A stretch of DNA of 64,000 bases from Burkholderiaceae bacterium (GCA_018882935.1 VERA01000001.1:7505-71504); one strand, 5' to 3'. Shown: positions 26,685 to 63,882, counted from the first letter of the stretch. A program made the numbers and translations. Notes: generated by a model not told the origin, from the sequence alone.

Positions 26685-26761
26685 TGGCCTGCCCAGCACG
26701 ATTCGAACGTGCGACCTACGGCTTAGAAGGCCGTTGCTCTATCCAGCTGAGCTATGGGCAG
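26685..26761 (-). tRNA. tRNA-Arg (anticodon TCT)
   Basis: Reverse complement CTGCCCATAGCTCAGCTGGATAGAGCAACGGCCTTCTAAGCCGTAGGTCGCACGTTCGAATCGTGCTGGGCAGGCCA; 77 nt with encoded CCA. Confidence 0.97.
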
Positions 26762-26817: not shown

Positions 26818-26894
26818 TGGTCGGAGTACAAGGATTCGAACCTTGGACCCCCTGCTCCCAAAGCAGGTGCGCTACCGGGCTGCGCCACACTCCG
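26818..26894 (-). tRNA. tRNA-Pro (anticodon TGG)
   Basis: Reverse complement CGGAGTGTGGCGCAGCCCGGTAGCGCACCTGCTTTGGGAGCAGGGGGTCCAAGGTTCGAATCCTTGTACTCCGACCA. Confidence 0.97.
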
Positions 26895-49873: not shown

Positions 49874-51535
49874 TCAAGTGATGCGTACTGCATGCTCGCG
49901 TGTAGCATGAAAAGTAACCGCGGGCCAGCGCTCTTGCACCAATTTCAGGTTCACAGCAGAGCTGGCAAGATAGGCCAGATTACCTGCCGCATCATGCGCG
50001 AGATGCGCGCCTGCAGAGGAACGCTCGAAGTCGGCTAATATTTTTTTATCTTCGCATGACACCCAGCGTGCTGTGTTGATGCTGGTTCCCTCAAATACGG
50101 CATCAACACCGTACTCATTCATCAGGCGACTCGCCACCACCTCAAACTGCAGCATACCAACAGCGCCAAGCACCAAGTCAGCGCCGCTAACGGGTTTGAA
50201 CACTTGCACCGCACCTTCTTCACCAAGCTGCTGCAAGCCTTTTTGTAGCTGCTTTATTTTGAGTGGGTTACGAATGCGAACGGTACGGAAAAAATCTGGC
50301 GCAAAGTAGGGAATGCCGGTGAATTGCAGCGCCTCACCTTCGGAAAAACTATCACCAATTTGCATATTGCCGTGATTCGGCAGACCAATAATATCTCCTG
50401 CGTAGGCCTCTTCGACTTGCTCACGCGAGGACGCCATGAACGTCACCACCGATGACATCTTCAGCTCGCGATTAAGCCGAAGATGCTTGATCTTCATGCC
50501 ACGCTCAAACCGGCCGGAGCACACTCGCAAGAAAGCAATTCGGTCGCGATGAGCCGGATCCATATTGGCTTGTATCTTGAATACGAAGCCGGAGAAAGCG
50601 GTCTCATCCGGCTTCACCATTCGTGCTGTCGCATCACGCTCACCCGGGGCGCGTGCCCAATCGAGTAGCGCATCCAGAATTTCACGAACACCAAAATTAT
50701 TGATCGCAGAACCAAAAAAAACCGGCGTCTGCTTACCAGCCAAGAAAGATTCAAGATGAAACGGATGCGAGGCACCATGCACCAGCTCAACCTCTGCCTT
50801 TAGCTGACCCATCTCTTGCGGGAACATCTCCTGCAGTCGCGGGTTATCTATGCCCTTGATCACCTCAAAGGTCTGATCAGCACGTTCACTACCGGGTACA
50901 AACAACAAGATCTCATCGCGCAGCAGGTGATACACGCCACGAAACGCCTTACCCATACCAATCGGCCAGGTGACTGGCGCACATTGAATACCCAGTACCG
51001 ACTCCACCTCATCCAATAACTCCAGGGGATCGCGTGTCTCACGATCCATTTTGTTCATGAACGTGATGATCGGTGTGTCGCGCATGCGGCAAACATTCAG
51101 CAACTTGATGGTTTGCGCCTCTACACCTTTGGCGGCATCAATCACCATCAAGGCCGAGTCAACCGCGGTCAATACGCGGTAAGTATCTTCCGAAAAGTCC
51201 TGGTGGCCCGGGGTATCGAGCAGGTTAACGACATGGTCACGGTAATCAAACTGCATGACCGAACTGGCGACCGAGATGCCGCGCTGTTTTTCAATTTCCA
51301 TCCAGTCTGAGGTTGCATGGCGGCCGCTTTTACGCGCCTTCACCGTACCGGCCAACTGAATTGCACCAGAGAACAGCAGCAGTTTCTCGGTGAGCGTGGT
51401 CTTGCCCGCGTCCGGGTGAGAAATGATTGCAAAGGTGCGGCGGCGCGCGACTTCGCGCGCAATATGTTCACGCGATGTCGCGTGCGCACGCGCCAGATCA
51501 TCGGTTTCGGAAAAATCAGTGGCGTGGGTCATCAC
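49874..51535 (-). CDS. prfC: Peptide chain release factor 3
   Basis: [37 protein letters not shown]. Confidence 0.98.
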
Positions 51536-51636: not shown

Positions 51637-52743
51637 TTGGGATTCAGATTGAGCAAACCAAATCGTCCGGAAATCTACCATCCGCGATTTTACGATCGGC
51701 ACATTCCGTCATTTGCTGAAGCAGCACTAGATCAGCGTTACGGCAGTTTATTCTCATCCATTCCACAGCTCGGGCTCTACAGTTTGCAGGATATCAGCAC
51801 CTATGTAGAGTGGAAGGAAAGCATCATTCAAGAGCTGTTTTTATATCGGCGTGATAAAAATCACATTACCGTCATCAATCAGGGGATGCAGGTCGATGGC
51901 GCTGCCGTGCAGCGGTTTGCTGATGCGATATTTCAGCACGAACCGGGTACAAACAGGCTTTGCTTTCATTCGGTAGATCTTATCAAGCATCACCAACTGC
52001 AAAAAAAGATTTTCCTACCGATTTCAGAAGATAGTGTGATTGATCTACCTCATACAGAGTCTGACTATCTTGCCACCCTTGGCCGATCGCTGCGTCAATC
52101 CATGCAGTCTCGACTCAAACGCACACAAGGCTTGAAGCATAAGACCTTCCCGGGAAGCGCGGTAGACGCTCAGCTACTTGAACGTATTATCGCGTTCAAC
52201 CATGCACGCATGCTGGCGAAGCAACGCTACTCTGCGATCGATGAAGCTGAGACGAAGCGACTACTGACACTTGCGCACGCGCGTGGCGTGGTGGGAACAA
52301 TAGAAATCAACGACAAACTCTGCGCAGGTAGTCTGGTGTGTCGCTTTGGTGACGACATTTTCTCGCTGCTGAATGCACATGACCCCAGCATGAACAAATT
52401 AGGGCTTGGCAAGCTATCGCGCCACCTGATGATTCTTGAGGCGATTCGTTCGGGCGCGCGCCGCTTTCATTTGTTGGGTGGGTATTTCAATAGCAAACGA
52501 CCGTTCGGCGCGCGCCGCATACCGCTGTGTACCTTGCTTGTGTATCGAGGTCGGCTCGGGATGGTAAAGGACGCAGCCTCGCTATTGCAGCTACTGCTGC
52601 AGTCGCTTGATTATCGGCTCAGAACATTCATCGAAGATCATAAATCTGAAGCCACCAACAGACTGCAGCGCAGTTTATCGATCAGTAAGGTATCCGTACT
52701 TCCGCGCCACCAGCGCAGCGTGAGGGGCTTGTGGCGTGAATGA
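51637..52743 (+). CDS. GNAT-family acetyltransferase (CelD/BcsL-like)
   Basis: YLATLGRSLRQSM, LGLGKL..HLMILEAIRSG..RFHLLGG..SKR; start codon uncertain; 3' end overlaps usp. Confidence 0.65.
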   Translation: MGFRLSKPNRPEIYHPRFYDRHIPSFAEAALDQRYGSLFSSIPQLGLYSLQDISTYVEWKESIIQELFLYRRDKNHITVINQGMQVDGAAVQRFADAIFQHEPGTNRLCFHSVDLIKHHQLQKKIFLPISEDSVIDLPHTESDYLATLGRSLRQSMQSRLKRTQGLKHKTFPGSAVDAQLLERIIAFNHARMLAKQRYSAIDEAETKRLLTLAHARGVVGTIEINDKLCAGSLVCRFGDDIFSLLNAHDPSMNKLGLGKLSRHLMILEAIRSGARRFHLLGGYFNSKRPFGARRIPLCTLLVYRGRLGMVKDAASLLQLLLQSLDYRLRTFIEDHKSEATNRLQRSLSISKVSVLPRHQRSVRGLWRE

Positions 52744-53087
52744 CCAACGATCACGAGCTGAATACCAAGCTCATTCGCCATTTGCTCGATCACATTCACC
52801 GGCTCGCCGACTTCCAGGTGCGGAATAACAGTAAGTCCGCTATTGCTCAATAGCGCGGCGCCAGCGTCCAGCTCTTTGGCCATCTTCTCGCGCTCAGCAA
52901 CCAGCCCTTCCTCGACACTCATGACCGCCGCAGCCGCAAACTCACCCACCAGCAGGTAAGGCGGCGGGCTCACCACGGCGAGCAGGTGCACTGCCGCCGT
53001 TGCCGGCAGGGAGAGCCGGCTACATTCGCGCAGTGCCGCCTGGCTCTCGACGCTTCCGTTGTAGGCAACAAGGATATTTTGGTACAT
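52638..53087 (-). CDS. Universal stress protein (UspA family)
   Basis: MYQNILVAYNGS, GEPVNVI, LVIVGHS, GSTDTLLI. Confidence 0.9.
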   Translation of the reverse strand: MYQNILVAYNGSVESQAALRECSRLSLPATAAVHLLAVVSPPPYLLVGEFAAAAVMSVEEGLVAEREKMAKELDAGAALLSNSGLTVIPHLEVGEPVNVIEQMANELGIQLVIVGHSRHKPLTLRWWRGSTDTLLIDKLRCSLLVASDL

Positions 53088-53170
53088 GGGCACCTCCCAG
53101 CGACTCGCTTCTGATAGCGAGCTTGGAGTATACGGCGCAGCGCCACCCGCCGCGCTTGGCGGCGACCAAC

Positions 53171-53237
53171 AAAAAAAACCCGGCAGGTTGCCCTGCCGGG
53201 TTTAAATCCATCCTTGTTGGAAGGCTGGAGGAGACGA
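53171..53237 (-). ncRNA. Small RNA resembling the betaproteobacterial anti-Shine-Dalgarno (toxic sRNA) double-hairpin family
   Basis: GUCUCCUCCAGCCUUCCAACAAGGAUGGAUUUAAACCCGGCAGG-GCAA-CCUGCCGGGUUUUUUUU; extended -10 TGATATAGT directly upstream; 5' end estimated. Confidence 0.75.
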
Positions 53238-53388
53238 GCCAGACTATATCAACCCGATTCCGCCGCGTCCGCTTTCGAATTGTGATGCCAGATATAAATT
53301 TTATGAATGAATGAAAGTTTTTTATTTTTCCAGACAAATAATTGTCTTTTTATGCATAAAAATCCGTTCGAACGCTTCATACCCGGGC

Positions 53389-53425
53389 AAAAAATTAAAC
53401 CCGCCACACTTGCATGTGGCGGGTT
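53389..53425 (-). terminator. Intrinsic terminator, the first strong one seen downstream of boxA
   Basis: AACCCGCCACA-TGCAAG-TGTGGCGGGTT (11-bp perfect stem) followed by TAATTTTTT. Confidence 0.75.
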
Positions 53426-53675
53426 CGGGTCTCCTCTCGCTCTTCCGGCGACAGATTTTTTTGGTGAAGCGGGCGCATCATGCCGACGAATTGAGGCGAT
53501 GTCATCATGCATCGCACCAACCCGCCAAGCCATTGATTCAAAAAGATTTTTTTATCACAAACAAATAACCTGCGGGTCAGTTTTTTGGGGACCAAGCACT
53601 CTCGGGTCGAGGCGCCCATGAACATGGTCTTACCCGACTCGCCGACACCCAATACGCCCACAGCCAGGCCTGGCG

Positions 53676-54911
53676 CTAGTAGGTTTCAACATGGAAACGC
53701 CCTTCAACCAGCATCTTCTGATGCAGGTCTGCCCACACCATTCCGGCACCCTCACAAATCGTTCTCAACGCATCCATCACACCCGCCTCCATGCCTTTCA
53801 CACCGCAGATATAAATGTAGGTATCTGCATTCAGTAGTTCGGCAACCGCAAGTGATGATGCGCGCAACTGATCTTGCACATAGGTTTTGGGTTCGTTATC
53901 AGCACGCGAGAATGCAAGATGAATGTCAATGAAGCTCTGCGGCAGTTTGCGTAGCGGTCCGAAGTACGGCAACTCACCCGGCTTTCGCGCGCCAAAGAAC
54001 AGCATCAGCTTGCCTTCAACCGGTGTGCCTTGCGCCATCAAGCGCCGCCGATACTCGGTCATGGCGCGCATCGGTGCTGCGCCTGTGCCAGTGCAGATCA
54101 TGATGATGTTAGAACCCGAATGGTTCGGCATCAGATAATGCGCGCCGAATGGTCCGGTGACTTGAACGGTGTCACCCTTTTGCAGATCGCACAAATAGTT
54201 AGACGCAACCCCGCGCACAGATTTGCCGTCGTGATCAAGCACGACACGCTTGACGGTCAACGAGAGGTTGTTATAGCCCGGTCGCTCACCATTGCGCGGG
54301 CTGGCCACAGAATAAAGTCGCAGGTAATGCGGCCGACCCGCATCATCCGTGCCCGGAGGAATAATGCCAATACTCTGCCCTTCCAATACCGGGAAATGCG
54401 CCTGACCAAAATCCAGCACGATATGACGTACATCGCTCTCTGCATCGGTATCCGTCAGGCGGTAGTTACCAGCAACGGTCGCTAGCAGAGGCTGTTTGAT
54501 GTCATACAGATGAAGGCTAGGCTCTGCCGCCGACCATGGTGCGCTAGATGAGGTAATCGATAGCGCAGCATTGTGCTGTGGCGGCGGCTCGATGGTGTCA
54601 GCAGCTACACCGTCGCCCGCAGTGAGTGGCTGCTGCTCGGGCAGCTCATCCCAACTGAACTGCTCAAGCACGCTGTAGGCCGCCGATTTCGACACCGTGC
54701 GCCAGTTATCAATCGACCCGGTAGGACACGGCGGCAGACACGCATTGCAACCATTACAGATGTTCGGGTCGACTACATAGTTACGATCATCATGCGAGAT
54801 CGCATCAATCGGGCAGGTGTCCTCACAGGTGTTGCAACGTATACAAACCTCAGGATCAATCAGGTGCTGACGTATCAGCGCCTCGGCGTCAGTAGAGCCC
54901 ATAGCTGTCAA
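53676..54911 (-). CDS. boxA: Benzoyl-CoA 2,3-epoxidase reductase subunit
   Basis: Two 4Fe-4S motifs ([24 protein letters not shown]), FNR domain [23 protein letters not shown]; start 54911 (TTG) or 54902 (ATG). Confidence 0.95.
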
Positions 54912-54914
54912 TCA

Positions 54915-56342
54915 TTAGTTGAAGCGCACGTACTCAAAGTCGATAGGCTGACGATTGATGCCGATAGGCGGTGGTGCGATCCAGTTCGCCATCTTGCCCG
55001 GCTCAACCACGCGGCCCATCAACGACGCTACATAAGCGCGGTCTTCCTCGGTGGGCAGCCACTGACGCACATGTGCCTGCCACTCGGCCTCGGAGATCAC
55101 TTGCCCTTGTGGAGACACGCGTAAACCGGCGAAGCTACCAATGTGGCGATTGAAGGCCTTGTGCGGCGCTTGCAGCCGGAACGGCAGGCCCGCTTTCTCG
55201 ATCACTTTATTCCAGCGACCGATACCCGCGATGGAGTCCTTAATGTAATCATCACGCAGCACCTCATTGAGCGCATTCAGCATGGGTACTTCGCGCTCCA
55301 CCAATTTATCGCCCTGTACTTCCAGAATCTTGTAATGATCGCCCTTGAGTTGATGATCATCCGTACGCTTGGTCTCTTCATAGCGGCCTTTCAAACCGGT
55401 CGCGTAAAAAGTCGCTGCGTTGGAAGACTGATCAGCGCCAAACAAGTCAATCGTCACGCTAAAGTGGAAGTTAAGGTAGCGCTGCAGAGTCGGCAGATCA
55501 ATCACACCGAGCTGTCGCAGTTGCTCCGGGTCTTCTGTGCTGTGCTGCTTCATGACCTCGCAGGTGCGCTGAATCGTACGCGAGACACCCGACTCACCGA
55601 CAAACATGTGATGCGCCTCTTCAGTGAGCATGAAACGGCAGGTACGCGAGAGCGGATCAAAACCGGACTCGGCAAGCGCGCACAATTGGAATTTACCATC
55701 ACGATCGGTGAAGTAAGTAAACATGTAGAACGCCAGCCAATCGGGCGTCTCTTCATTAAAGGCCTGCAGAATACGCGGGTTATCTTGCGAGCCGGAGTTG
55801 CGATGCAGTAGTGCCTCGGCTTCCTCACGACCATCACGACCAAAATACTTGTGCAGCAAGTAAACCATCGCCCACAAATGGCGACCCTCTTCCACATTAA
55901 TCTGGAACAGATTACGCAGATCGTATTGTGATGGGCAGGTCAAGCCTAAATGACGCTGCTGCTCGACGGATGCCGGTTCGGTATCACCTTGCGTCACAAT
56001 AATCCGGCGCAGATTAGCGCGATGCTCACCTGGCACTTCTTGCCATGCGGCTTCGCCTTTGTGCTCACCAAAATTCACCTTGCGGTCTGCTTCAGCTGCA
56101 TTCAAGAAAATGCCCCAACGATAATCGGGCATCTTCACATGACCAAACTGTGCCCAACCTTCCGGCGTGGTGTTGATCGCTGTACGCAGATAGACATCGA
56201 AATTCTGCGAGCCATCGGGGCCCATCTCATTCCACCACTGCAGGTAGTTTGGCTGCCAATGCTCGAGCGCGCGCTGCAAAGCACGGTCTTCCGAGAGGTT
56301 GACGTTATTCGGTATTTTTTCGCTGTAATCGATGGCGCTCAC
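54915..56342 (-). CDS. boxB: Benzoyl-CoA 2,3-epoxidase di-iron subunit
   Basis: DYSEKIPNNV, QGDTEPASVEQ, EEGRH and EEAHH iron ligands; GTG start at 56342 with an AGGAG RBS. Confidence 0.96.
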   Translation of the reverse strand: MSAIDYSEKIPNNVNLSEDRALQRALEHWQPNYLQWWNEMGPDGSQNFDVYLRTAINTTPEGWAQFGHVKMPDYRWGIFLNAAEADRKVNFGEHKGEAAWQEVPGEHRANLRRIIVTQGDTEPASVEQQRHLGLTCPSQYDLRNLFQINVEEGRHLWAMVYLLHKYFGRDGREEAEALLHRNSGSQDNPRILQAFNEETPDWLAFYMFTYFTDRDGKFQLCALAESGFDPLSRTCRFMLTEEAHHMFVGESGVSRTIQRTCEVMKQHSTEDPEQLRQLGVIDLPTLQRYLNFHFSVTIDLFGADQSSNAATFYATGLKGRYEETKRTDDHQLKGDHYKILEVQGDKLVEREVPMLNALNEVLRDDYIKDSIAGIGRWNKVIEKAGLPFRLQAPHKAFNRHIGSFAGLRVSPQGQVISEAEWQAHVRQWLPTEEDRAYVASLMGRVVEPGKMANWIAPPPIGINRQPIDFEYVRFN

Positions 56343-56404
56343 GCTATCTCCTGTGGGAATGACTCGATCCAATAAGGGTTATTATTTTTTAAACGTTTTA
56401 TTAC

Positions 56405-58063
56405 CTACACACGCTCGAATTCGAATTTCGCCTTGCTGCCGGTTCCGTACACTTTCAAGGCACCCGACTCTCCGACCGCATTCGGACGATTGAAGATCCA
56501 GTTCTGCCAAGCAGACAAACGACCAAACACCCGCGTGAACATATTCTCTTGACCGTTGAAGCGAAGATTCGCCTCCATACCAGTGAGTGCATCCGGCGAC
56601 ATACTGGCGCGCTCTTCAAGCGCAAGGCGAATCTCATCGGCCCAGTCGATATCGTCCGGGTTTGCCGTGATTAAGCCCAGTTCCATTGCTTTATCCGCAT
56701 CCAATGCTTGTCCAAGCAATGCCTTCAATTCGTTGAGCTTGGCTGCATCATCATAGAAGCGACGTGCCAGACGTCCCTGCCCGGTGATCATGGGCAGCAC
56801 ACCAAAATTCATCGCAGACAAGGTGATGACCGGCGCATCTTGTGGCGCGTCGGGCAAACTGAGCATGTAGCTGCGATCAGCCGCAAACGCCAGCTCGGCC
56901 AGCGTGCCGGCGAAGCAGGAATCCTGATCAATCAGTGCGAACAGACTGCGAGACGAGACATCAATCCGCGCTAAGGTACGACGCATCAAGCCGAGTGTTT
57001 CGCGCACCAGCCAATGCGAGGCATGTTGCTGCATGCTGGCATCGCACGCCAGTACATGCTCGCGGTGACCCGCAGTTTTAAGTATCCAGATACCCAGCTC
57101 GATTTCATTGGTACGTAGATGCAGGATCGCATCATCCAACTCGCGTGCCATTTGTAGTGGCCACCAGTGCACACCGGCCGCTTCGATTCCCGCAATATCA
57201 TCAGGCTGAGGTGTTGCAGGCGAGTGTACGGTGATGGTCGCACTGCGCGCATCGCGGTCCAGCAACACGTCGACATAGCGGTAGCGCACACCTCGCTCGG
57301 TGAATTCGCGTTGCAGCGGCGTTAGCTGCACACCCGTCGCTTGCGCTGCTCGATCACTCTGCGCTGCCAATACCTCGGCGCGCTCGCGGACCGCTTGCGC
57401 AAATTGCGCTGGCTTGGCGATCTCATCGACCAGTCGCCACTCTTTGGCACGCTGGCCGCGAATACCTTCGGAGGTCGTGCAAAAAATATCGGCGTGATCA
57501 TGCCGTACCTTGCGCTTGTCGGTCAGTCGCGTTAATCCACCGGTGCCAGGCAGCACGCCGAGCAACGGTACCTCAGGCAAACTCACTGAGGATGATCTAT
57601 CGTCGACCAAAAGAATTTCGTCGCAGGCAGCCGCTAGTTCATACCCACCACCGGCACAAGCACCGTTCACCGCGGCGAGGAATTTCAGACCGGAATAGCG
57701 ACTGGAATCTTCCAGACCATTGCGTGTCTCGTTGGTGAACTTGCAGAAGTTGACTTTCCAGGCGTGGCTGGATTTACCCAGCATAAAAATATTGGCGCCC
57801 GAGCAGAAGGTTCTATCCAAACCGCTACCAAGCACCACCACGCGTACCTTCGGATGCTCGAAACGGATTCGCTGTATGGCGTCATGCAGCTCAATATCGA
57901 CGCCGAGATCATAGGAATTCAACTTGAGCTTGTAGCCGTCACGCAGCCCACCGTCTTCGTTCACCGCCATGGTCAGGGTAGCGACCACACCATCCACGGC
58001 CAACGACCAGTGCCGGTAGCGCTCAGGGGTGGTTTGGTAGTCAACGACGAAGGATTCGCTCAT
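56405..58063 (-). CDS. boxC: 2,3-epoxybenzoyl-CoA dihydrolase (crotonase fold)
   Basis: LKLNSYDLGVDIELHDA, CSGANI, CAGGGYELA, LPEVPLLGVLPGTGG. Confidence 0.95.
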   Translation of the reverse strand: MSESFVVDYQTTPERYRHWSLAVDGVVATLTMAVNEDGGLRDGYKLKLNSYDLGVDIELHDAIQRIRFEHPKVRVVVLGSGLDRTFCSGANIFMLGKSSHAWKVNFCKFTNETRNGLEDSSRYSGLKFLAAVNGACAGGGYELAAACDEILLVDDRSSSVSLPEVPLLGVLPGTGGLTRLTDKRKVRHDHADIFCTTSEGIRGQRAKEWRLVDEIAKPAQFAQAVRERAEVLAAQSDRAAQATGVQLTPLQREFTERGVRYRYVDVLLDRDARSATITVHSPATPQPDDIAGIEAAGVHWWPLQMARELDDAILHLRTNEIELGIWILKTAGHREHVLACDASMQQHASHWLVRETLGLMRRTLARIDVSSRSLFALIDQDSCFAGTLAELAFAADRSYMLSLPDAPQDAPVITLSAMNFGVLPMITGQGRLARRFYDDAAKLNELKALLGQALDADKAMELGLITANPDDIDWADEIRLALEERASMSPDALTGMEANLRFNGQENMFTRVFGRLSAWQNWIFNRPNAVGESGALKVYGTGSKAKFEFERV

Positions 58064-58074
58064 GGGTCTCCCGA

Positions 58075-58135
58075 TGCAATATCATGCCTTCAAACAGCGA
58101 ACAGGAACTATATTGCGTGTCACGTGGTAAGTCAA
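58075..58135 (-). promoter_or_regulatory. Sigma70 promoter of boxC with candidate BoxR operator half-sites
   Basis: TTGACT (58135-58130), 17 nt, TATAGT (58112-58107); GCAATAT/ATATTGC inverted motifs at 58076 and 58110 overlap and follow the -10. Confidence 0.65.
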
Positions 58136-58254
58136 TGCTCGCTAAGTCAATGCTCTCCAGGTCAAATGCTCGGCAAGCACATTCTTGCGCAAATCAAGCG
58201 TGGGGCCAGTGAATGCCGAAGCGCTCGCCTATTGCCATTTCGGCAGCTTGCTGG

Positions 58255-59154
58255 TCAGTTGGCGATCTGTTCGCGCAATTGTGTAAGCGCCCGCTCTGGC
58301 GGCATAGCGCTGGTATCAAGCGTGAGGTCGGCTTTTGAGTAGAACTGGGCCCGGCTTTCCAGGATACGCTTCAGGTCATCCATCGCTTCCCTGTTGCCCG
58401 CCATGGGTCTGCGGTCACCTTGGGCAAGTACCCGGCTCATATGCTCTTCCGGAGTCGCCTTCAGCCTCACGGTGTAGCAATGGGTCAGCAGCAAATTGAA
58501 GGTTGCGGGTTCGGAGACGATGCCGCCGGGCGTTGCAATCACCACGCGCGAGTGAGCGCGGATAACTTCTTCAAGCGCGCGCTGCTCGTAACGGCGGTAG
58601 GCGGTCTGGCCGTACAGCGCATGAATCTCCGCAATACCGCAGCCCGCCAGCGCCTCGATCTGGCCGGACAGCTCGATGAACGGCACGCCCTGCTCAGTGG
58701 CGAGCGCCCGACCGAGGCTGGATTTTCCGGCGCCACGCAGCCCGATCAGGGCAATACGCTGACGGCGGGTTGACTCGCTGGTCGGCTGCTCAAATAACAT
58801 CGCCAGCGCAGCGCGTGCCTTGGCCAGCTCTTCATCACTGCGGCCACGCAAGGTCTCGCGGATCATCAACCAATCCGGCGAGGAGGCAGCCTCATCGCCC
58901 GTCATCTCGGCCAACGAGCAATTGAGTACCACGCACAGCTGACGCAGAAACTGAATCGAGGCATTGCCGACCCCGGTCTCGACATTCGCCACGTGGCGCT
59001 CAGAGACATCGGCCAGCTTAGCCAGCGCTTTGCGCGTCAAGCCACGGCGGGCACGCAGCAGGCGAACACGCTCACCGAGAGCGCTGAGAAACGGATCTTT
59101 ATCTTGCCCCTCGGGGTGAGCAGTGCTTGAAGGTACTGGCTGGGTCGGTGGCAT
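58255..59154 (-). CDS. boxR: BoxR/BzdR-type regulator (XRE HTH plus shikimate-kinase-like benzoyl-CoA sensor)
   Basis: LGERVRLLRARRGLTRKALA...SERHVANVETG; IALIGLRGAGKSSLG; start reassigned to 59154. Confidence 0.92.
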   Translation of the reverse strand: MPPTQPVPSSTAHPEGQDKDPFLSALGERVRLLRARRGLTRKALAKLADVSERHVANVETGVGNASIQFLRQLCVVLNCSLAEMTGDEAASSPDWLMIRETLRGRSDEELAKARAALAMLFEQPTSESTRRQRIALIGLRGAGKSSLGRALATEQGVPFIELSGQIEALAGCGIAEIHALYGQTAYRRYEQRALEEVIRAHSRVVIATPGGIVSEPATFNLLLTHCYTVRLKATPEEHMSRVLAQGDRRPMAGNREAMDDLKRILESRAQFYSKADLTLDTSAMPPERALTQLREQIAN

Positions 59155-59182
59155 AGCTTCGGGTTGGTGCTTTCTTGACGCA

Positions 59183-59228
59183 AGCAAGATAGTGCATTTA
59201 CACTCAGTTTTGCATGCATTATAAGTTC
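59183..59228 (+). promoter_or_regulatory. Sigma70 promoter of the benzoate-CoA ligase gene with TGCA-type operator motifs
   Basis: TTTACA (59197-59202), 17 nt, TATAAG (59220-59225); AGCA-N6-TGCA at 59183-59196 and TGCATTATAAGTTC at 59215-59228. Confidence 0.6.
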
Positions 59229-59292
59229 GCAAAATAAAAATAACCAAGGCGCTTGGCCGACGCCCAAGCCAAGACCCGCACAGGAGACAACC

Positions 59293-60849
59293 ATGAAGAA
59301 CGCTGCATCGGGACTACCGCAGCGCTTCAACTTCGCTCAGCATCTGCTCGCGCTGAATACAGCACGCGGCAGCAAAGTTGCCTACCGAGATGACCACAGC
59401 GCGCTGAGCTATGCCGAGCTGGATCATCGCGTGCGCTGCTTCGCCGCCGGCCTGCTGGCCGAGGGTCTGCAGCCTGAGCAGCGGGTATTACTGGTCATGC
59501 TCGATACCATCGATCTGCCTGTCGCGTTTCTGGGGGCGCTGTATGCGGGTGTGGTACCGGTGCCGGTGAATACCCTGCTCACAGCGGAAAACTACCGCTA
59601 CATGCTTGAGCATAGCGATGCCAAAATGATCGTGGTATCCGACGCCCTGAGAAGCACTGTTGATCAAGCGATATCGACCTGCAGTCGCCCATTGAAGGTG
59701 GTTGTCTCCGGCGCGGCCAGCAATGATCGGGATATCGCATTTACCAATGTGTTGGCACACACGCCGTTGACGCAGGCCGCAGATACACACGCGGATCAGT
59801 TCGCGTTTTGGCTGTACTCCAGCGGCTCAACCGGACAACCCAAAGGCACGGTGCACAGCCACGCGAATTTATATTGGACTGCGGCGTTGTATGGCAAGCC
59901 GGTGCTGGGCCTGACCGAAGACGATGTCGTGTTCTCCGCAGCCAAGCTGTTTTTTGCGTACGGCCTTGGTAACGCATTGACCTTTCCGCTATCGGTGGGT
60001 GCCACAGTTGTACTGATGGCAGAGCGACCCACACCGGCTGCGGTTTTCGAGCGACTGATCAAGCAAAAGCCAACGGTTTTTTACGGTGTTCCCACGCTGT
60101 ATGTGGCCATGCTTGCTGCCGATAATTTGCCGACACGCGATCAACTCCGTTTGCGCTTGTGTGTTTCTGCGGGCGAGGCTTTACCGCGTGAGGTCGGTGA
60201 AAAATTGAGCGCCTATGTCGGCTGCGACATTCTCGATGGCCTTGGTTCAACCGAGATGCTGCACATCTTTCTGTCTAACCGCGCCGGTGCCGTACGCTAT
60301 GGAACCACCGGCACACCGATTCCTGGCTACGAGGTCGAGTTACGCGATGAACGGGGGCAGCCAGTCGCTGTGGGTGATATCGGCGACCTCTACATCAAAG
60401 GCCCGAGCGCAGCACTCCTGTACTGGAATAGTCGCGACAAAAGCGCCGCCACCTTTCAAGGTGAGTGGGTAAAAAGTGGCGATAAATACACGGTGGATGC
60501 GGACGGCTATTACAGCTACGCAGGACGTAGCGATGACATGTTGAAGGTCAGCGGTCAGTATGTCTCGCCGATTGAGGTGGAGTCTGCGTTGATGGCGCAT
60601 GATCAGGTGCTCGAATGCGCCGTCGTAGGACAAACGGATGTTGATGGCCTGACCAAGACCGTCGCGTATGTCGTACTGCATGAGCCTGCTACCGCAGACG
60701 ATGCGTTGGTAGCCACCTTGAAAGCGTTTGTCAAAAACCGGCTGGCACCCTTTAAATATCCACGTGAGATCGTGTTTATCCGCGAATTACCAAAAACAGC
60801 CACCGGAAAGATTCAGCGTTTCAAATTACGCGAGCAGAATGTCGGCTAA
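59293..60849 (+). CDS. bclA: Benzoate-CoA ligase
   Basis: FWLYSSGSTGQPKG, AKLFFAYGLGN, ILDGLGSTEMLHIF, PKTATGKIQR; box cluster context. Confidence 0.92.
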   Translation: MKNAASGLPQRFNFAQHLLALNTARGSKVAYRDDHSALSYAELDHRVRCFAAGLLAEGLQPEQRVLLVMLDTIDLPVAFLGALYAGVVPVPVNTLLTAENYRYMLEHSDAKMIVVSDALRSTVDQAISTCSRPLKVVVSGAASNDRDIAFTNVLAHTPLTQAADTHADQFAFWLYSSGSTGQPKGTVHSHANLYWTAALYGKPVLGLTEDDVVFSAAKLFFAYGLGNALTFPLSVGATVVLMAERPTPAAVFERLIKQKPTVFYGVPTLYVAMLAADNLPTRDQLRLRLCVSAGEALPREVGEKLSAYVGCDILDGLGSTEMLHIFLSNRAGAVRYGTTGTPIPGYEVELRDERGQPVAVGDIGDLYIKGPSAALLYWNSRDKSAATFQGEWVKSGDKYTVDADGYYSYAGRSDDMLKVSGQYVSPIEVESALMAHDQVLECAVVGQTDVDGLTKTVAYVVLHEPATADDALVATLKAFVKNRLAPFKYPREIVFIRELPKTATGKIQRFKLREQNVG

Positions 60850-61690
60850 GCTCACGATCGACTGGCACGATCGAGAGATCGCTATCGAGTATCGCTGGAT
60901 CGATGTGCCCGTTGCGGTCAATGCGGACCGTACGTTAAATGCAGAAGGTAGGGCCAATACAGATAACGCAACTGACACGGCCGCCGAACAACCAGTGATG
61001 GTTTTTCTGCATGAGGGATTGGGATCGGTCTCGCTATGGAAAGACTTCCCCGATCAGCTGTGCGCCCACATCGGTATGCGTGGCTTGGTGTACTCGCGGC
61101 CGGGCTACGGCAAATCAACACCGCGTCGGACAGATGAGCAGTGGGACCCCGACTTCATGCATCTGCAGGCGTACGAAGTACTGCCCACGCTTTTGCGAGA
61201 ACTGAACGTACAACGAACCTGGTTATTTGGGCACAGCGATGGCGGCTCCATCGCCTTGCTGTACGCAGCACAATTTCCGACGGCGCTTAGCGGTGCGATC
61301 GTCGTTGCGCCGCATTTGTTCGTCGAGGATATTAGCGTTGAGAGCATAGAGCGTGCACGCCACGCTTACAGGCATCAGGGACTACGCGAACGCCTTGCAC
61401 GTCACCATGACGATGTTGATTCTGCTTTCTTTGGCTGGAATGATGCCTGGCTATCACTTGCGTTCAGGGCATGGAATATCGAGTCGATCGTGCCGGATAT
61501 CTCATGCCCCTTGCTCGCTGTACAGGGTGAGCAGGATGAGTATGGCAGTCTGCGCCAAATTCGCCGCATCCAGCAATTACAGCCTGCCAGTGAAATCATT
61601 GCGCTGGCCGCGTGTGGCCATTCACCCCACCGTGATCAACCGCAGGCTCTGATGACCGCAGTAGGCGACTTCATTCGGCGTCACCGCTAA
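60839..61690 (+). CDS. Alpha/beta hydrolase of the type found in box clusters (possible lactonase/thioesterase)
   Basis: FLHEGLGS, GHSDGG, QGEQDEYG, GHSPH; start 60839 overlaps the bclA 3' end. Confidence 0.85.
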   Translation: MSAKLTIDWHDREIAIEYRWIDVPVAVNADRTLNAEGRANTDNATDTAAEQPVMVFLHEGLGSVSLWKDFPDQLCAHIGMRGLVYSRPGYGKSTPRRTDEQWDPDFMHLQAYEVLPTLLRELNVQRTWLFGHSDGGSIALLYAAQFPTALSGAIVVAPHLFVEDISVESIERARHAYRHQGLRERLARHHDDVDSAFFGWNDAWLSLAFRAWNIESIVPDISCPLLAVQGEQDEYGSLRQIRRIQQLQPASEIIALAACGHSPHRDQPQALMTAVGDFIRRHR

Positions 61691-61751
61691 ACCATCATCG
61701 CGGCCTGGATGATTCTCGTACAATGCGCGAATCGCACGCATCTGATCAACC

Positions 61752-62210
61752 ATGCAAATCGAATCTTTGAACAAGCGCTTGGTACTGCAGCTGGGCTATG
61801 CCGGTCTGCTACCTTTTTTGCTGATGATGCTTGGGGTGTGGAGCGCCGATCCTGGCTGGATTAGCGACTTCGTCAAAGGCCAGCTCGCCTACGCGATGGT
61901 GATTCTGTCATTTCTGGGTGGCGTTCACTGGGGGGTAGCGCTGTTGTCGAGTACCCTACCGGAATCAAGCGTTCGAAAAGCCCTGATGTGGGGCGTCACA
62001 CCATCGTTGATCGCATGGTGCGCCACGCTCTTCAGTGGTTTTGGTTTTGCGGTGATGATGGCCGGGTTTATCGCAGCGCTGCAAGTAGACAAGCAGCTCT
62101 ACCCGGCGTACGGACTGCCTGATTGGATGCTGCCGCTTCGCAAACAGCTGACCACCGTGGTGGTGGTCAGTTTGCTATTGACTGTAATCGGTGCGAATTT
62201 GCGCGGCTAG
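61752..62210 (+). CDS. DUF3429-like membrane protein
   Basis: LGYAGLLPF, YAMVILSFLGGVHWG, PSLIAW. Confidence 0.82.
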   Translation: MQIESLNKRLVLQLGYAGLLPFLLMMLGVWSADPGWISDFVKGQLAYAMVILSFLGGVHWGVALLSSTLPESSVRKALMWGVTPSLIAWCATLFSGFGFAVMMAGFIAALQVDKQLYPAYGLPDWMLPLRKQLTTVVVVSLLLTVIGANLRG

Positions 62211-62229
62211 CTGACAGCGCTACACGCAA

Positions 62230-62535
62230 TCAGAAATCGTCGTCGTCCGACTTTCTGGGTTTACCGTCAACGTCACTGATACGCATACGCTTGCGGCGGT
62301 CACCCATCAGTTCACGCAATTCGCGGATGCTAAGGTCGGTCACCTCGTGCATACGGATCAGCAGCGATGCCCCAACAGGCAAGGTGCGGTGGCGAATTTT
62401 ACTGATCACTGGAGGCCGGACTTCGAGCGCACGCGATAAAGCTGCGTCATTCTTCAAACCGAGCTTCTGGATCAACGCATCGAGCAAACGATTCGGGTCG
62501 TAGCCTTCTTGCGATACCAGAGGATGCTTGTCCAT
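62230..62535 (-). CDS. Small conserved HTH-like DNA-binding protein of unknown function
   Basis: YDPNRLLDAL..KLGLKNDAALSRALEVRPPVISKIRH..LPVGASLLIRMHE; start 62535 or 62598. Confidence 0.7.
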   Translation of the reverse strand: MDKHPLVSQEGYDPNRLLDALIQKLGLKNDAALSRALEVRPPVISKIRHRTLPVGASLLIRMHEVTDLSIRELRELMGDRRKRMRISDVDGKPRKSDDDDF

Positions 62536-62862
62536 TACGTCTCTCCCCCCTAGGAATTTTTTTGGGTCAGCGGTCTGAGGGTTGATTTCTCGAACCATTG
62601 CCCCAGGGCAATTACTGTAATGCTAATTTATATGTCATCGCAACAACATTTTCAAGGGGTTCAAGAAAATTTGCCCGTAATACAAGATCTTTTTTTTAAG
62701 ACATTTGCCCCATCGACAACAAATAACTTCCAGGTCATTAAAAAACCATTAAAAAACAATGGGTTAAGCTCTAAGCTGAGGCGTCTGCATACGCGCGACC
62801 GAAAACTGGGCGCAGACGCAACGCCGCACGCCGGTCAGTTAAATACTTAGTACAAGTGCAAT

Positions 62863-63882
62863 TTATTTACAGGCAGCGCGCGCCTCTTCCAGTAAACGCT
62901 TGCCATCAAACCCGCGCGCGTTCATGTCTTTCACCCATTCATCGTCGATCTGATTAGTCGCAGTCACCCAACGCTTTAACTCGGCATCGGGCAACACATA
63001 AATCACGTTCTTGCGCTGCTCGGCACTCTTGCGGCCCGGTGCTGCATCTTCGGCAAACAACTTACCCACCCAGGCAGATGCATCAGCACCGCTGTTGTTA
63101 TCGATGACTTTTTTCAAATCGGGGGACAAGCTATCGTATTTCGCTTGGTTCATGGCAAATACAAACACGGCATTCAGCATCTGCGGCGAACCCATCGGAG
63201 ACTCGGTGTGAAATTTGGTGATTTCTTCAAACTTCATTGATGGCACGACCTCCCATGGAATCAGTGCGCCATCGATCACGCCCTTCGATAAGGCTTCAGC
63301 AGCTTGCGGCAATGGCATTGGTACTGGCGTAGCGCCTAATGCGGCGATCATCTTGGTACCGAGCCGTGTCGGCGCACGCACCTTCATGCCTTTCAGATCT
63401 TCCAAAGTCTTGACCGGCTTCTTGGTGGTATTCAAGAGTGCGCCATCATGCACATGAAACAGCAGCGGCTTGACACCTTTGAACTCGGCAGTCGCGTTCT
63501 TCATGGCGTAATGCCACAGCCCTCGACTGGCACGCTCAGAATCATTGATCATGAACGGCAACTCAAATACCTCTGATACCGGAAAGCGCCCTGCTTGATA
63601 TCCAGGTACTGTCCAAATAATATCGGCGACACCATCCTTGGCCTGATCAAACAGTTGCTGCGGCGTCCCGCCAAGTTGCATCGACGGATAAATTTGGCAT
63701 TTCAATTTGCCACCTGATTCCTTGGCAATTTTTTCGCACCAAGGAACGATAAAGCGCGCGTGCGTCGTCGACGCCGGTGGCAGAAAATGATGCACCTTGA
63801 GCGTCACTGTCTGAGCCGAAACGCTGATAGCGGACATGGCCGTCATCAACACAATAAGCGAGCGAACGCAGCGAACTAGCAT
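62863..63882 (-). CDS. dctP: TRAP transporter substrate-binding protein (DctP family)
   Basis: Signal peptide, LKVHHFLPP, IYPSMQLGG, EDLKGMKVRAP (conserved Arg), FVFAMN. Confidence 0.9.
   Translation of the reverse strand: MLVRCVRSLIVLMTAMSAISVSAQTVTLKVHHFLPPASTTHARFIVPWCEKIAKESGGKLKCQIYPSMQLGGTPQQLFDQAKDGVADIIWTVPGYQAGRFPVSEVFELPFMINDSERASRGLWHYAMKNATAEFKGVKPLLFHVHDGALLNTTKKPVKTLEDLKGMKVRAPTRLGTKMIAALGATPVPMPLPQAAEALSKGVIDGALIPWEVVPSMKFEEITKFHTESPMGSPQMLNAVFVFAMNQAKYDSLSPDLKKVIDNNSGADASAWVGKLFAEDAAPGRKSAEQRKNVIYVLPDAELKRWVTATNQIDDEWVKDMNARGFDGKRLLEEARAACK

What the first reader, a model, noticed from the sequence alone, without database searches (positions are those of the whole stretch)
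53219..53446. Built-in decoy: the box-operon 3' end is complementary to the neighbouring sRNA seed (candidate sRNA-sponge pair)
Seen: just 5' of the terminator at 53389-53425, the minus strand reads GGAAGAGCGAGAGGAGAC (53446-53429). It can pair with the sRNA 5' end GUCUCCUCCAGCCUUCC (53235-53219) as 8 bp, a 2x2 internal loop, 2 bp, a 1-nt bulge and 5 bp, i.e. 15 of 17 nt. I saw no other strong terminator between the boxA stop (53676) and this hairpin, so it may end a ~285-nt 3' UTR. Established: 3'-UTR-derived sponge RNAs titrate Hfq sRNAs in enterobacteria. Inference: benzoate-induced boxCBA transcription would release a sponge that neutralises the adjacent anti-SD sRNA, a self-contained post-transcriptional switch. 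Alternative: the segment is an inverted paralog of the sRNA expressed from the plus strand.
Basis: partly seen in the sequence, partly recalled or inferred. Interest (0 to 1): 0.82.

Follow-up and report, generated by a model that had tools for sequence, protein, structure and literature searches.

The report
Conserved anti-sRNA gene beside toxic sRNA
The stretch complementary to the neighbouring small RNA is real, but it belongs to a previously undescribed, conserved small-RNA gene with its own promoter and terminator that always sits just upstream of that small RNA and probably neutralises it, not to a decoy specific to the benzoate (box) operon.

Summary
Minus-strand 53446-53429 pairs with the 5' end of the sRNA at 53236-53170, which is a member of Rfam RF02278 (Betaproteobacteria toxic sRNA; relatives are S17 and NcS27). 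The pairing extends to 24 bp in three helices (-33.2 kcal/mol, z = -6.2 against shuffles). It is the best non-self site in the window.

The anti-seed lies in an ~82-nt unit I call AsR (53470-53389, minus strand). AsR has a conserved ATGACN-17 nt-CANNNT promoter and a covarying intrinsic terminator. It lies 170-240 nt upstream of the sRNA in all 45 related loci that have enough sequence. Its core is 88% conserved, against 27% for the spacer.

Four loci have AsR-sRNA-usp but no box genes. In two of these the upstream gene is divergent, so AsR is not a box 3' UTR feature. In this window no terminator separates boxA from AsR, so box read-through could add AsR-containing RNA.

AsR is most likely a dedicated anti-sRNA (sponge). 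It could act in trans, or in cis within a read-through precursor. Transcription, strand and antagonism are inferred, because the available RNA data are unstranded contigs. No Rfam family or paper describes AsR.

The parts
53500..53505 (-). AsR promoter, -35-like hexamer ATGACA. It is preceded by a conserved TGCrnnGCAwG block and an A-tract.
   Evidence: It is the only sigma-70-like hit in 52500-54200. ATGACN, exactly 17 nt, CANNNT is found in 42 of 46 modules; the rest are one-base, spacing or insertion variants.
53477..53482 (-). AsR promoter, -10-like hexamer CATGAT. The predicted transcription start is about 53470.
   Evidence: The distance from the -10 to the A-run is constant at 10-15 nt across modules. 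The start itself is inferred, not measured.
53389..53470 (-). AsR: predicted ~82-nt small RNA. In order: an A-rich 5' end, a small hairpin, a purine-rich anti-seed, and an intrinsic terminator.
   Evidence: The core is 88% identical on average across 44 distinct modules, against 27% for the spacer. My covariance model gives a single hit in the window at 103 bits. There is no Rfam family even at E <= 10.
53450..53458 (-). AsR AAAUCUGUC: helix 1 partner of sRNA GAUGGAUUU (53212-53204).
   Evidence: The 9 pairs are 100% paired in 31 sequences, and the G/A variation opposite U keeps the pair.
53429..53446 (-). It forms helices 2 and 3 with sRNA nt 1-17.
   Evidence: The variants GAGGAGAC, GGGGAGAC and GAGGGGAC all keep 8 bp with GUCUCCUC through G-U pairs. 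The terminal pair of helix 2 shows G-C, G-U and A-U.
53389..53426 (-). AsR (and box operon) intrinsic terminator: a 13-bp GC-rich hairpin (53426-53397) followed by UUUAAUUUUUU.
   Evidence: RNAalifold finds 5 pairs with compensatory double changes, plus G-U pairs that would be A-C on the other strand. The minus strand folds better.
53297..53388 (-). Variable spacer between AsR and the sRNA promoter region.
   Evidence: Length 34-138 nt and 27% mean pairwise identity. There is no conserved plus-strand promoter here.
53243..53296 (-). sRNA promoter region: a conserved block TATATCTGGCATCACAAnnGAAAGCrGAC (53296-53267) and an extended -10, TGaTATAGT (53251-53243), 7 nt before the G at 53235.
   Evidence: 74% mean identity over the 62 nt upstream. 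The promoter role is inferred.
53170..53236 (-). sRNA of family RF02278 (toxic / double-hairpin sRNA; relatives S17S and NcS27). The CU-rich anti-SD seed is 53235-53219, hairpin 1 follows, and the terminator is 53203-53176 plus U8.
   Evidence: (51.1 bits, gathering score 50). Nt 1-33 are 92% conserved. Literature: PMC5688073 and PMC11722255.
53471..53675 (-). boxA stop to AsR start: there is no terminator here, so box transcripts can read into AsR in this genome.
   Evidence: Unstranded metatranscriptome contigs span 53389-53729 and 53375-53699, but contig ends coincide with polymorphic sites, so they are not RNA ends.
52638..53093 (-). usp (universal stress protein) gene, the invariant downstream neighbour of the AsR-sRNA pair.
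   Evidence: usp follows the sRNA in every locus that has downstream sequence.

Best explanation
The anti-seed belongs to a separate, conserved small-RNA gene, here called AsR (about 53470-53389, minus strand). AsR has its own sigma-70-type promoter and its own intrinsic terminator. It lies about 150 nt upstream of the RF02278 sRNA gene, on the same strand.

AsR nt 12-41 can pair with sRNA nt 1-32 in three helices (9+7+8 bp). These cover the single-stranded 5' GUCUCCUCC and the second CU-rich site. Both are the parts that relatives of this sRNA use to bind ribosome-binding sites.

I propose that AsR is a dedicated anti-sRNA (sponge). By pairing with the sRNA it blocks the seeds, and possibly triggers co-degradation. 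This would set a threshold for the sRNA's repression of target mRNAs. In this genome box operon read-through can add AsR-containing 3' ends, but that is an accident of neighbourhood and not the conserved design.

Shown: the sequence, the complementarity, the conservation, the promoter and terminator motifs, and the synteny. Inferred: transcription and its strand, pairing in vivo, and the direction of the effect.
For: - Complementarity far above chance, and the best non-self site in the window.
- AsR is present 170-240 nt upstream of every genuine copy of this sRNA that has enough upstream sequence: 25 genome loci and 20 metagenome loci.
- AsR core is 88% and sRNA nt 1-33 is 92% conserved, while the spacer is 27%.
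- ATGACN-17-CANNNT lies at a fixed distance in 42 of 46 modules. It is the only promoter-like hit in the region.
- The terminator has 5 compensatory pairs and minus-strand G-U pairs, and the minus strand folds better.
- All one-sided changes in helices 1 and 3 keep pairing. One helix 2 pair shows G-C, G-U and A-U. 99.2% of cells are paired, against 37-59% when partners are slid.
- AsR occurs without box genes, and next to a divergent gene.
- Relatives of the sRNA act through these CU-rich sites and slow growth when overexpressed (PMC5688073 and PMC11722255).
Against: - There is no stranded or end-mapped RNA evidence. The metatranscriptome data are unstranded Logan contigs at depth 2-17. Their ends fall at polymorphic sites, and DNA carry-over cannot be excluded.
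- Both partners are nearly invariant, so true covariation rests on one pair and a handful of wobble-preserving changes. In helix 2, 6 cells are unpaired.
- The margin over the next genomic site is modest (-33.2 against -29.6).
- The spacer appears in RNA-derived contigs. That fits read-through, and so a cis role, as well as it fits a trans role.
- All modules come from one freshwater Burkholderiales lineage. I could not test Bordetella, Burkholderia or Herbaspirillum loci.
Confidence: 0.55

Rival explanations
1. Cis-masking leader. The AsR promoter drives a ~300-nt primary transcript that reads through the imperfect AsR terminator to the sRNA terminator. Within it AsR folds back on the sRNA seed, giving an inactive precursor that must be processed. 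This would resemble S17L being cut to S17S by RNase E in Bordetella pertussis.
For: - The 301-nt RNA folds with exactly the three AsR:sRNA helices in cis (MFE -114.1, z -6.55).
- The U-tract after the AsR hairpin is interrupted (UUUAAUUUUUU, and similar in relatives).
- RNA-derived contigs cover the spacer in most of the metatranscriptome runs laid.
- S17 is made as a 190-nt precursor (PMC11722255).
Against: - A conserved extended -10 (TGnTATAGT) lies 7-8 nt before the sRNA 5' end, which argues for an independent start.
- The spacer is unconserved and varies from 34 to 138 nt.
- The AsR hairpin is a strong 13-bp GC stem with a T-run.
- The contigs are unstranded and may include DNA.
Confidence: 0.2
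2. The functional source of the anti-seed is the benzoate-induced boxCBA mRNA 3' UTR, which releases a sponge that switches off the sRNA.
For: - There is no terminator between boxA and the hairpin.
- Contigs from RNA libraries span the boxA 3' end to the hairpin.
- In 13 of 17 judgeable metagenome loci, box genes lie upstream on the same strand.
- The boxC start region is complementary to both sRNA sites. Relatives of the sRNA regulate aromatic catabolism.
Against: - AsR has its own conserved promoter.
- Four loci lack box genes, and two of them have a divergent upstream gene.
- The box cluster is an indel beside a conserved backbone.
- usp linkage is complete, while box linkage is not.
Confidence: 0.12
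3. AsR is an ordinary trans-acting sRNA with its own CU-rich mRNA targets. Its complementarity to the neighbouring sRNA would be a relic of origin by inverted duplication, with no regulatory meaning.
For: - AsR reads like a diverged reverse complement of sRNA nt 1-32.
- It has the hallmarks of an Hfq-type sRNA: a terminator with a U-tail and an A-rich 5' end.
Against: - A relic would decay. Instead every change in helices 1 and 3 preserves pairing.
- The two genes are never found apart.
Confidence: 0.08
4. The element is a truncated paralog of the sRNA, transcribed from the plus strand as GUCUCCUCUCGCUCUUCCGGCGACAGAUUUUUUU.
For: The plus strand has a weak hairpin plus T-run at 53437-53462 and the same 5' octamer as the sRNA.
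Against: - A plus-strand start at 53429 would need a promoter inside the covarying hairpin or the unconserved spacer.
- The conserved promoter-like block would then lie downstream of the RNA.
- The plus-strand stem is only 4 bp.
- G-U pairs in the big hairpin become A-C on the plus strand, and the consensus fold is weaker.
Confidence: 0.03
5. Chance, or generic SD versus anti-SD complementarity with no specific relationship.
For: Any purine-rich SD-like stretch pairs with a CCUCC-containing seed, and other sites in the window reach -29.6 kcal/mol.
Against: - The pairing includes non-SD parts (AAAUCUGUC with GAUGGAUUU, and GGAAG with CUUCC).
- 0 of 2000 shuffles reach the observed energy.
- Co-occurrence and conservation are strict.
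Confidence: 0.02

Closest known systems
Rfam RF02278 Betaproteobacteria toxic sRNA: Burkholderia cenocepacia double-hairpin sRNAs ncS03/05/27/62 and Bordetella pertussis S17S (this is the partner sRNA, not AsR)
   Same: The CM score is above the gathering score. It has a 5' GUCUCCUCC anti-SD seed, a first hairpin with a second CU-rich site, and a terminator with a U-tail.
   Different: Here the sRNA appears to have its own extended -10 promoter right at its 5' end, whereas S17S and short NcS27 are processed from longer RNAs. It is also always preceded by AsR, which those papers do not describe.
mRNA- or spacer-derived sponges: SroC for GcvB (PMC4474525), and 3'ETS-leuZ for RyhB/RybB (the latter from my own knowledge)
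   Same: An RNA whose exposed stretch mimics targets and pairs with the seed of an Hfq-type sRNA to titrate it.
   Different: Those are by-products of another transcript, released by processing, and are encoded far from the sRNA gene. AsR has its own promoter, lies next to its target's gene and is co-inherited with it. Its complementarity is longer (24 bp in 3 helices) and covers both seeds.
Stand-alone anti-sRNAs AgvB and AsxR of EHEC prophages (my own knowledge, not checked here)
   Same: Independently transcribed small RNAs whose job is to pair with and antagonise a core-genome sRNA.
   Different: Those are horizontally acquired and unlinked to the target gene. AsR is chromosomal and in tandem with its target. 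No copy was found in viral contigs.
3' UTR sRNAs with an internal promoter that share the mRNA terminator (DapZ and MicL type; my own knowledge)
   Same: In this window the AsR promoter lies downstream of the boxA stop, and AsR shares its terminator with the box operon.
   Different: In other loci the same gene stands alone or follows a divergent gene, so the 3' UTR position is not a defining property.
Adjacent, imperfectly complementary RNA antidotes: type I toxin-antitoxin pairs such as tisB/IstR-1 and shoB/OhsC, and the RNA-RNA pair SdsR/RyeA (my own knowledge)
   Same: A growth-inhibiting RNA and a neighbouring small RNA with about 20 nt of partial complementarity that would neutralise it, inherited as a module.
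   Different: The neutralised RNA here is a non-coding regulator, not a toxin mRNA. The genes are in tandem, not divergent or overlapping. Toxicity of this copy is untested.
S17L, the 190-nt precursor of S17S in Bordetella pertussis (PMC11722255)
   Same: A longer upstream RNA segment, with an RBS-like purine stretch, precedes the mature sRNA on the same strand.
   Different: S17L has a 123-nt leader and no reported internal terminator. I could not obtain its sequence to test for an AsR-like anti-seed.

Membership tests
Rfam RF02278 (toxic / double-hairpin sRNA): applies to 53236-53170 | Covariance-model score at or above the curated gathering score | tested here: met
   51.1 bits against 50, full-length match 1-64.
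Rfam RF02278 (toxic / double-hairpin sRNA): applies to 53236-53170 | Unpaired CU-rich anti-SD 5' end, then two hairpins, the second being a terminator with a U-tail | tested here: met
   The MFE fold leaves the 5' GUCUCC free and gives hairpin 1 plus a 12-bp terminator and U8.
Rfam RF02278 (toxic / double-hairpin sRNA): applies to 53236-53170 | Inhibits growth when overexpressed, and represses targets at their RBS | not testable with these tools
   Known only for relatives (PMC5688073 and PMC11722255).
Sponge RNA / anti-sRNA: applies to AsR 53470-53389 | Complementarity to the sRNA seed beyond chance | tested here: met
   -33.2 kcal/mol, z = -6.2, 0 of 2000 shuffles, and the top non-self site in 128 kb.
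Sponge RNA / anti-sRNA: applies to AsR 53470-53389 | Complementarity conserved or covarying across relatives | tested here: met
   45 of 45 related modules keep it. 99.2% of cells are paired, six one-sided changes keep the pair, and one pair shows G-C, G-U and A-U. The covariation is thin because both partners are nearly invariant.
Sponge RNA / anti-sRNA: applies to AsR 53470-53389 | Transcribed on the strand that is complementary to the sRNA | tested here: inconclusive
   The conserved promoter and terminator are on the minus strand. RNA-library contigs cover it but are unstranded and low in depth.
Sponge RNA / anti-sRNA: applies to AsR 53470-53389 | Physically binds the sRNA and relieves repression of its targets | not testable with these tools
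   Needs EMSA, RIL-seq or CLASH, and reporter assays.
   It has its own conserved promoter. It is present without box genes and downstream of a divergent gene. Read-through from boxA remains possible in this window.
RNA-RNA toxin-antitoxin-like module | The toxic RNA and the neutralising RNA are adjacent and co-inherited | tested here: met
   Co-occurrence is strict and the genes are never found apart.
RNA-RNA toxin-antitoxin-like module | The toxic partner arrests growth and the antidote rescues it | not testable with these tools
   Needs co-expression experiments.
Any described RNA family (for AsR itself) | Match to an Rfam 15 model | tested here: not met
   Nothing above 16 bits on 53389-53476 even at E <= 10. 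Literature searches found no sponge for this sRNA family.

The most novel reading that the evidence does not exclude
AsR and the RF02278 sRNA form a co-inherited, two-gene RNA-only module that works like a toxin-antidote or threshold device. The growth-slowing anti-SD sRNA is always shipped with a dedicated anti-sRNA. That anti-sRNA masks both seeds in trans and, through a leaky terminator, also in cis within a self-inhibited precursor. The leader of Bordetella S17L, and the leaders of other family members, could be degenerate versions of the same antidote.
Probability: 0.3. Interest if true: 0.75.

Novelty: new member of a known kind. Interest (0 to 1): 0.6.

Why it matters
RF02278 sRNAs (S17, NcS27 and the tsRNAs) are among the most conserved regulators of Betaproteobacteria. 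They repress transporters, catabolic genes and a sigma-54 activator through anti-SD seeds, and nothing is known about how their activity is restrained.

A dedicated partner gene that is strictly co-inherited would be such a restraint. It would also be a rare case of a sponge that is a stand-alone gene linked to its target's gene, and not a by-product of another transcript.

It yields an RNA family that can be searched for. It also gives a simple test: rescue of sRNA-mediated repression or toxicity by AsR, with compensatory mutations. Finally, it suggests re-reading the leaders of S17L and NcS27 for the same function.

Tried and rejected
- **Rfam for AsR:** no family, even with permissive thresholds.
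- **Plasmid collection:** no match in distant mode with the whole module.
- **Viral contigs:** no AsR and no sRNA.
- **Reaching cultured relatives through usp homologues:** the best 120 hits are all environmental or MAG proteins at 71% identity or more, so this gave no route to Herbaspirillum, Burkholderia or Bordetella loci.
- **Metatranscriptomes for RNA ends or strand:** only unstranded Logan contigs were available. The contig ends I first took for RNA ends (53145, 53238, 53257, 53389) coincide with polymorphic sites, so they are assembly breaks. Runs X2, X11, X43 and X44 look like DNA.
- **Small ORF after GAGGAGAC:** rejected. An ATG follows in some loci, but not in the window or in group 2, and no frame is conserved.
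- **CsrA/RsmA-type GGA decoy:** rejected. The loop GGA is lost (AGA, UGA) in several lineages.
- **Plus-strand paralog:** rejected on the promoter, terminator and wobble evidence.
- **Sigma-54 promoter in the sRNA upstream block (TGGCAT...):** rejected by eye, because the -12 element and the spacing do not fit.
- **The top plus-strand hybrid site at 58481:** it lies inside the boxR-like ORF, so it is not a ribosome-binding site.
- **Kimelman et al. 2012:** not held in the library.

Full report
**1. Observation.** The sequences are exactly as described. The minus strand reads GGAAGAGCGAGAGGAGAC at 53446-53429 and GTCTCCTCCAGCCTTCC at 53235-53219.

The neighbouring genes were identified with curated models:
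- boxA, 53676-54911, minus strand.
- boxB, 54915-56372, minus strand.
- boxC, 56405-58063, minus strand.
- A universal stress protein gene, usp, 52638-53093, minus strand.
- prfC, 49874-51535, minus strand.

The small RNA at 53236-53170 (minus) reaches the gathering score of Rfam RF02278, the Betaproteobacteria toxic small RNA (51.1 bits against 50). The pattern scan finds only two terminator-like sites on the minus strand in 52500-54200. One is the hairpin at 53426-53397 and the other is the sRNA's own terminator. So nothing terminator-like lies between the boxA stop and the first hairpin.

**2. With the first 20 nt of the sRNA as probe, this site is the best hybrid in the whole window on both strands, apart from the sRNA's own antisense (-26.8 against -24.7 kcal/mol).

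With 36 nt of the sRNA the pairing extends to a third helix: AsR AAAUCUGUC (53458-53450) with sRNA GAUGGAUUU (53212-53204). That gives 24 bp in three helices at -33.2 kcal/mol. Two thousand dinucleotide shuffles of the partner give -13.4 +/- 3.2 (z = -6.2), and none reaches the observed value. The next best genomic site is -29.6. Energy alone is therefore good but not overwhelming. The comparative evidence carries more weight.

**3. Comparative evidence.**
- A scan of one genome per species for BoxA relatives returned 80 loci.
  - In 25 of them, all freshwater Oxalobacteraceae or Burkholderiaceae MAGs and isolates with BoxA 72-87% identical, the sRNA follows the box genes.
  - In all 25 the anti-seed block lies 170-240 nt upstream of the sRNA.
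  - Loci without the sRNA lack the block too.
- An independent scan of metagenome contigs with a 16-mer of the sRNA gave 120 stretches, 21 of which are genuine sRNA copies.
  - All 20 with enough upstream sequence carry the block.
  - The remaining copy has only 148 nt of upstream sequence.
- Across 44 distinct modules, mean pairwise identity by segment is as follows:

| Segment | Mean pairwise identity |
|---|---|
| Anti-seed core | 0.88 |
| sRNA nt 1-33 | 0.92 |
| Each of the two terminators | 0.71 |
| Spacer between the two units (34-138 nt long) | 0.27 |

**4. What the block is.** Upstream of it, at a constant distance, every lineage has ATGACN, 17 nt, CANNNT. In the window these are ATGACA at 53505-53500 and CATGAT at 53482-53477. 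The exact pattern is found in 42 of 46 modules. The other four have a one-base variant, an 18-nt spacing or an insertion. It is also the only sigma-70-like hit of the pattern scan in this region.

Downstream, the GC-rich hairpin shows five pairs with compensatory double changes. It also has G-U pairs that would be A-C mismatches on the other strand, and it is followed by a T-run. The consensus fold and 20 of 26 single folds are better on the minus strand.

A small hairpin that presents GGAAG in its loop is kept by different means in the divergent loci L030-L032 and L191. There UCGC/GCGA becomes UCUC/GAGA or UCUCG/CGAGA, with compensating insertions.

So the element has the anatomy of an autonomous ~82-nt small-RNA gene, which I call AsR (about 53470-53389, minus strand). 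A covariance model built from 26 copies finds one copy in the window at 103 bits and nothing else above 22 bits. Rfam has no matching family even at E <= 10.

**5. Is it a box operon feature?** No.
- Some loci have a 3-hydroxyacyl-CoA dehydrogenase gene between boxA and AsR.
- Four metagenome loci (L092, L137, L149, L166) have AsR-sRNA-usp with no box gene in 2.5-10 kb upstream.
  - In L137 and L166 the upstream gene is on the opposite strand, yet the same promoter motif is present.
- The window's dctP (62863-63882) is 76% identical to the dctP that lies next to AsR in the box-less L092.
  - So the ~9 kb box cluster behaves as an indel beside a conserved dctP ... AsR-sRNA-usp-prfC backbone. 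The cluster comprises a boxR-like regulator, boxCBA, a benzoate-CoA ligase and a hydrolase.
- usp follows the sRNA in every locus with downstream sequence, whereas box genes precede AsR in 13 of 17 judgeable metagenome loci.

In this window box transcripts can still run into AsR, because there is no intervening terminator.

**6. Conservation of the pairing.** I aligned 31 distinct AsR-plus-sRNA concatenations and counted the 24 proposed intermolecular pairs.
- 99.2% of cells form standard pairs, against 37-59% when the partners are slid by 1-3 columns.
- Helices 1 and 3 are 100% paired. Every change in them preserves the pair (A to G opposite U, C to U opposite G, and one A to G in the sRNA opposite U).
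- The three anti-seed variants GAGGAGAC, GGGGAGAC and GAGGGGAC all keep 8 bp with the invariant GUCUCCUC.
- The terminal pair of helix 2 shows G-C (19), G-U (5), A-U (3) and 3 mismatches.
- The shuffle control reached the observed percentage paired in 11 of 500 shuffles and the covariation score in 10 of 500. By the tool's own description these are not probabilities.

Because both partners are nearly invariant, the covariation evidence is thin. The argument rests mainly on joint conservation and on the direction of the few changes.

**7. RNA evidence.** Runs that hold this sequence are lake and river metatranscriptomes, kept only as unstranded Logan contigs. Contigs from these libraries cover boxA, AsR, the spacer, the sRNA and usp at depths of 2-17.

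I first read several contig ends (53145, 53238, 53257, 53389) as RNA ends. They coincide with polymorphic positions seen in the same or other runs (53146, 53238, 53256, 53383/53387). They are therefore assembly breaks.

The data show that the region is present in RNA-derived libraries, including the spacer. That is compatible with read-through of the AsR terminator, but DNA carry-over cannot be excluded. Strand and RNA ends remain untested.

**8. Mechanism.** Relatives of the sRNA have been studied in two organisms.
- Burkholderia cenocepacia ncS03/05/27/62 use their CU-rich unpaired regions to bind ribosome-binding sites. NcS27 slows growth when overexpressed, and expressing the reverse complement of its CU-rich 5' end has the opposite effect (PMC5688073).
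- Bordetella pertussis S17S is Hfq-bound and is cut by RNase E from a 190-nt precursor. It represses a sigma-54 activator through its single-stranded sites (PMC11722255).

AsR covers precisely those sites. The most economical reading is that AsR is a dedicated anti-sRNA that sequesters the sRNA.

A variant I cannot exclude is a cis mechanism. The 301-nt RNA from the AsR start to the sRNA terminator folds with the same three helices (MFE -114.1 kcal/mol, z = -6.55), and the U-tract after the AsR hairpin is interrupted.

Against a purely cis role, a conserved extended -10 (TGnTATAGT, 53251-53243) sits 7 nt before the sRNA 5' end, and the spacer is unconserved.

**9. Comparison with what is known.** No paper found here describes a sponge for this sRNA family.

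AsR works like the known sponges and anti-sRNAs (SroC for GcvB; AgvB/AsxR). It differs in three ways:
- It is a stand-alone gene.
- It is in tandem with, and strictly co-inherited with, its target's gene.
- It has long three-helix complementarity.

In layout it recalls adjacent RNA antidotes of type I toxin-antitoxin systems, and in this window it recalls 3' UTR sRNAs with an internal promoter. I file it as a new member of the anti-sRNA kind. Its RNA family appears undescribed.

**10. Limits.** All modules come from one freshwater Burkholderiales lineage. I could not obtain Bordetella, Burkholderia or Herbaspirillum loci with the scans left, so generality is unknown. Transcription, strand, pairing in vivo and the sign of the effect are all inferences.

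Noticed in passing
window 53676-62800 compared with L092, L137, L149, L166: The whole box cluster (boxR-like regulator, boxCBA, benzoate-CoA ligase, hydrolase) sits between dctP (62863-63882) and AsR. Related loci have the orthologous dctP (76% identical) close to AsR with no box genes. The cluster therefore behaves as a ~9 kb insertion or deletion.
   Followed up: partly
window 58064-58108 (minus), boxC translation start region: UUGAAGGC...CGGGAGACCCAUG is complementary to both CU-rich sites of the sRNA (-18.2 kcal/mol, rank 7 of 97 ORF starts in the window). GGGAGAC is kept in three related loci, while GAAGGC is kept only in close relatives. boxC may be a target of the sRNA.
   Followed up: partly
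window 53145, 53238, 53257, 53389: Ends of metatranscriptome contigs recur at these positions in several runs, but each lies next to a polymorphic site (53146 C>G, 53238 G>A, 53256 G>A, 53383/53387). They are assembly breaks and not RNA ends.
   Followed up: yes
window 53267-53296 and 53495-53515 (minus): A CATCA(C/T) motif occurs in the conserved block upstream of the sRNA (TGGCATCAC, and twice in group 2 loci). It also occurs in inverted orientation over the AsR -35 region (GCATGATGAC). This may be a shared regulator site. TGCA-type repeats there could also be BoxR/BzdR-like operators (a recollection, not tested).
   Followed up: no
L023 about 5820-5885: A ~45-nt hairpin-forming insertion separates the AsR promoter from the AsR body in this one locus.
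   Followed up: no
window 53087-53110 (minus), usp start region: The usp ribosome-binding site GCUGGGAGGUGCCCAUG lies about 70 nt after the sRNA terminator and is SD-rich. Some RNA-library contigs run from usp into the sRNA body, so the sRNA terminator may be read through into usp.
   Followed up: no
window 26688-26761 and 26821-26894 (minus): Two tRNA genes. They are the only other Rfam hits in the window at the gathering threshold.
   Followed up: no
window 51637-52743 (plus): A 368-aa ORF with no NCBIfam match that overlaps the 3' end of usp on the opposite strand. It may be spurious.
   Followed up: no
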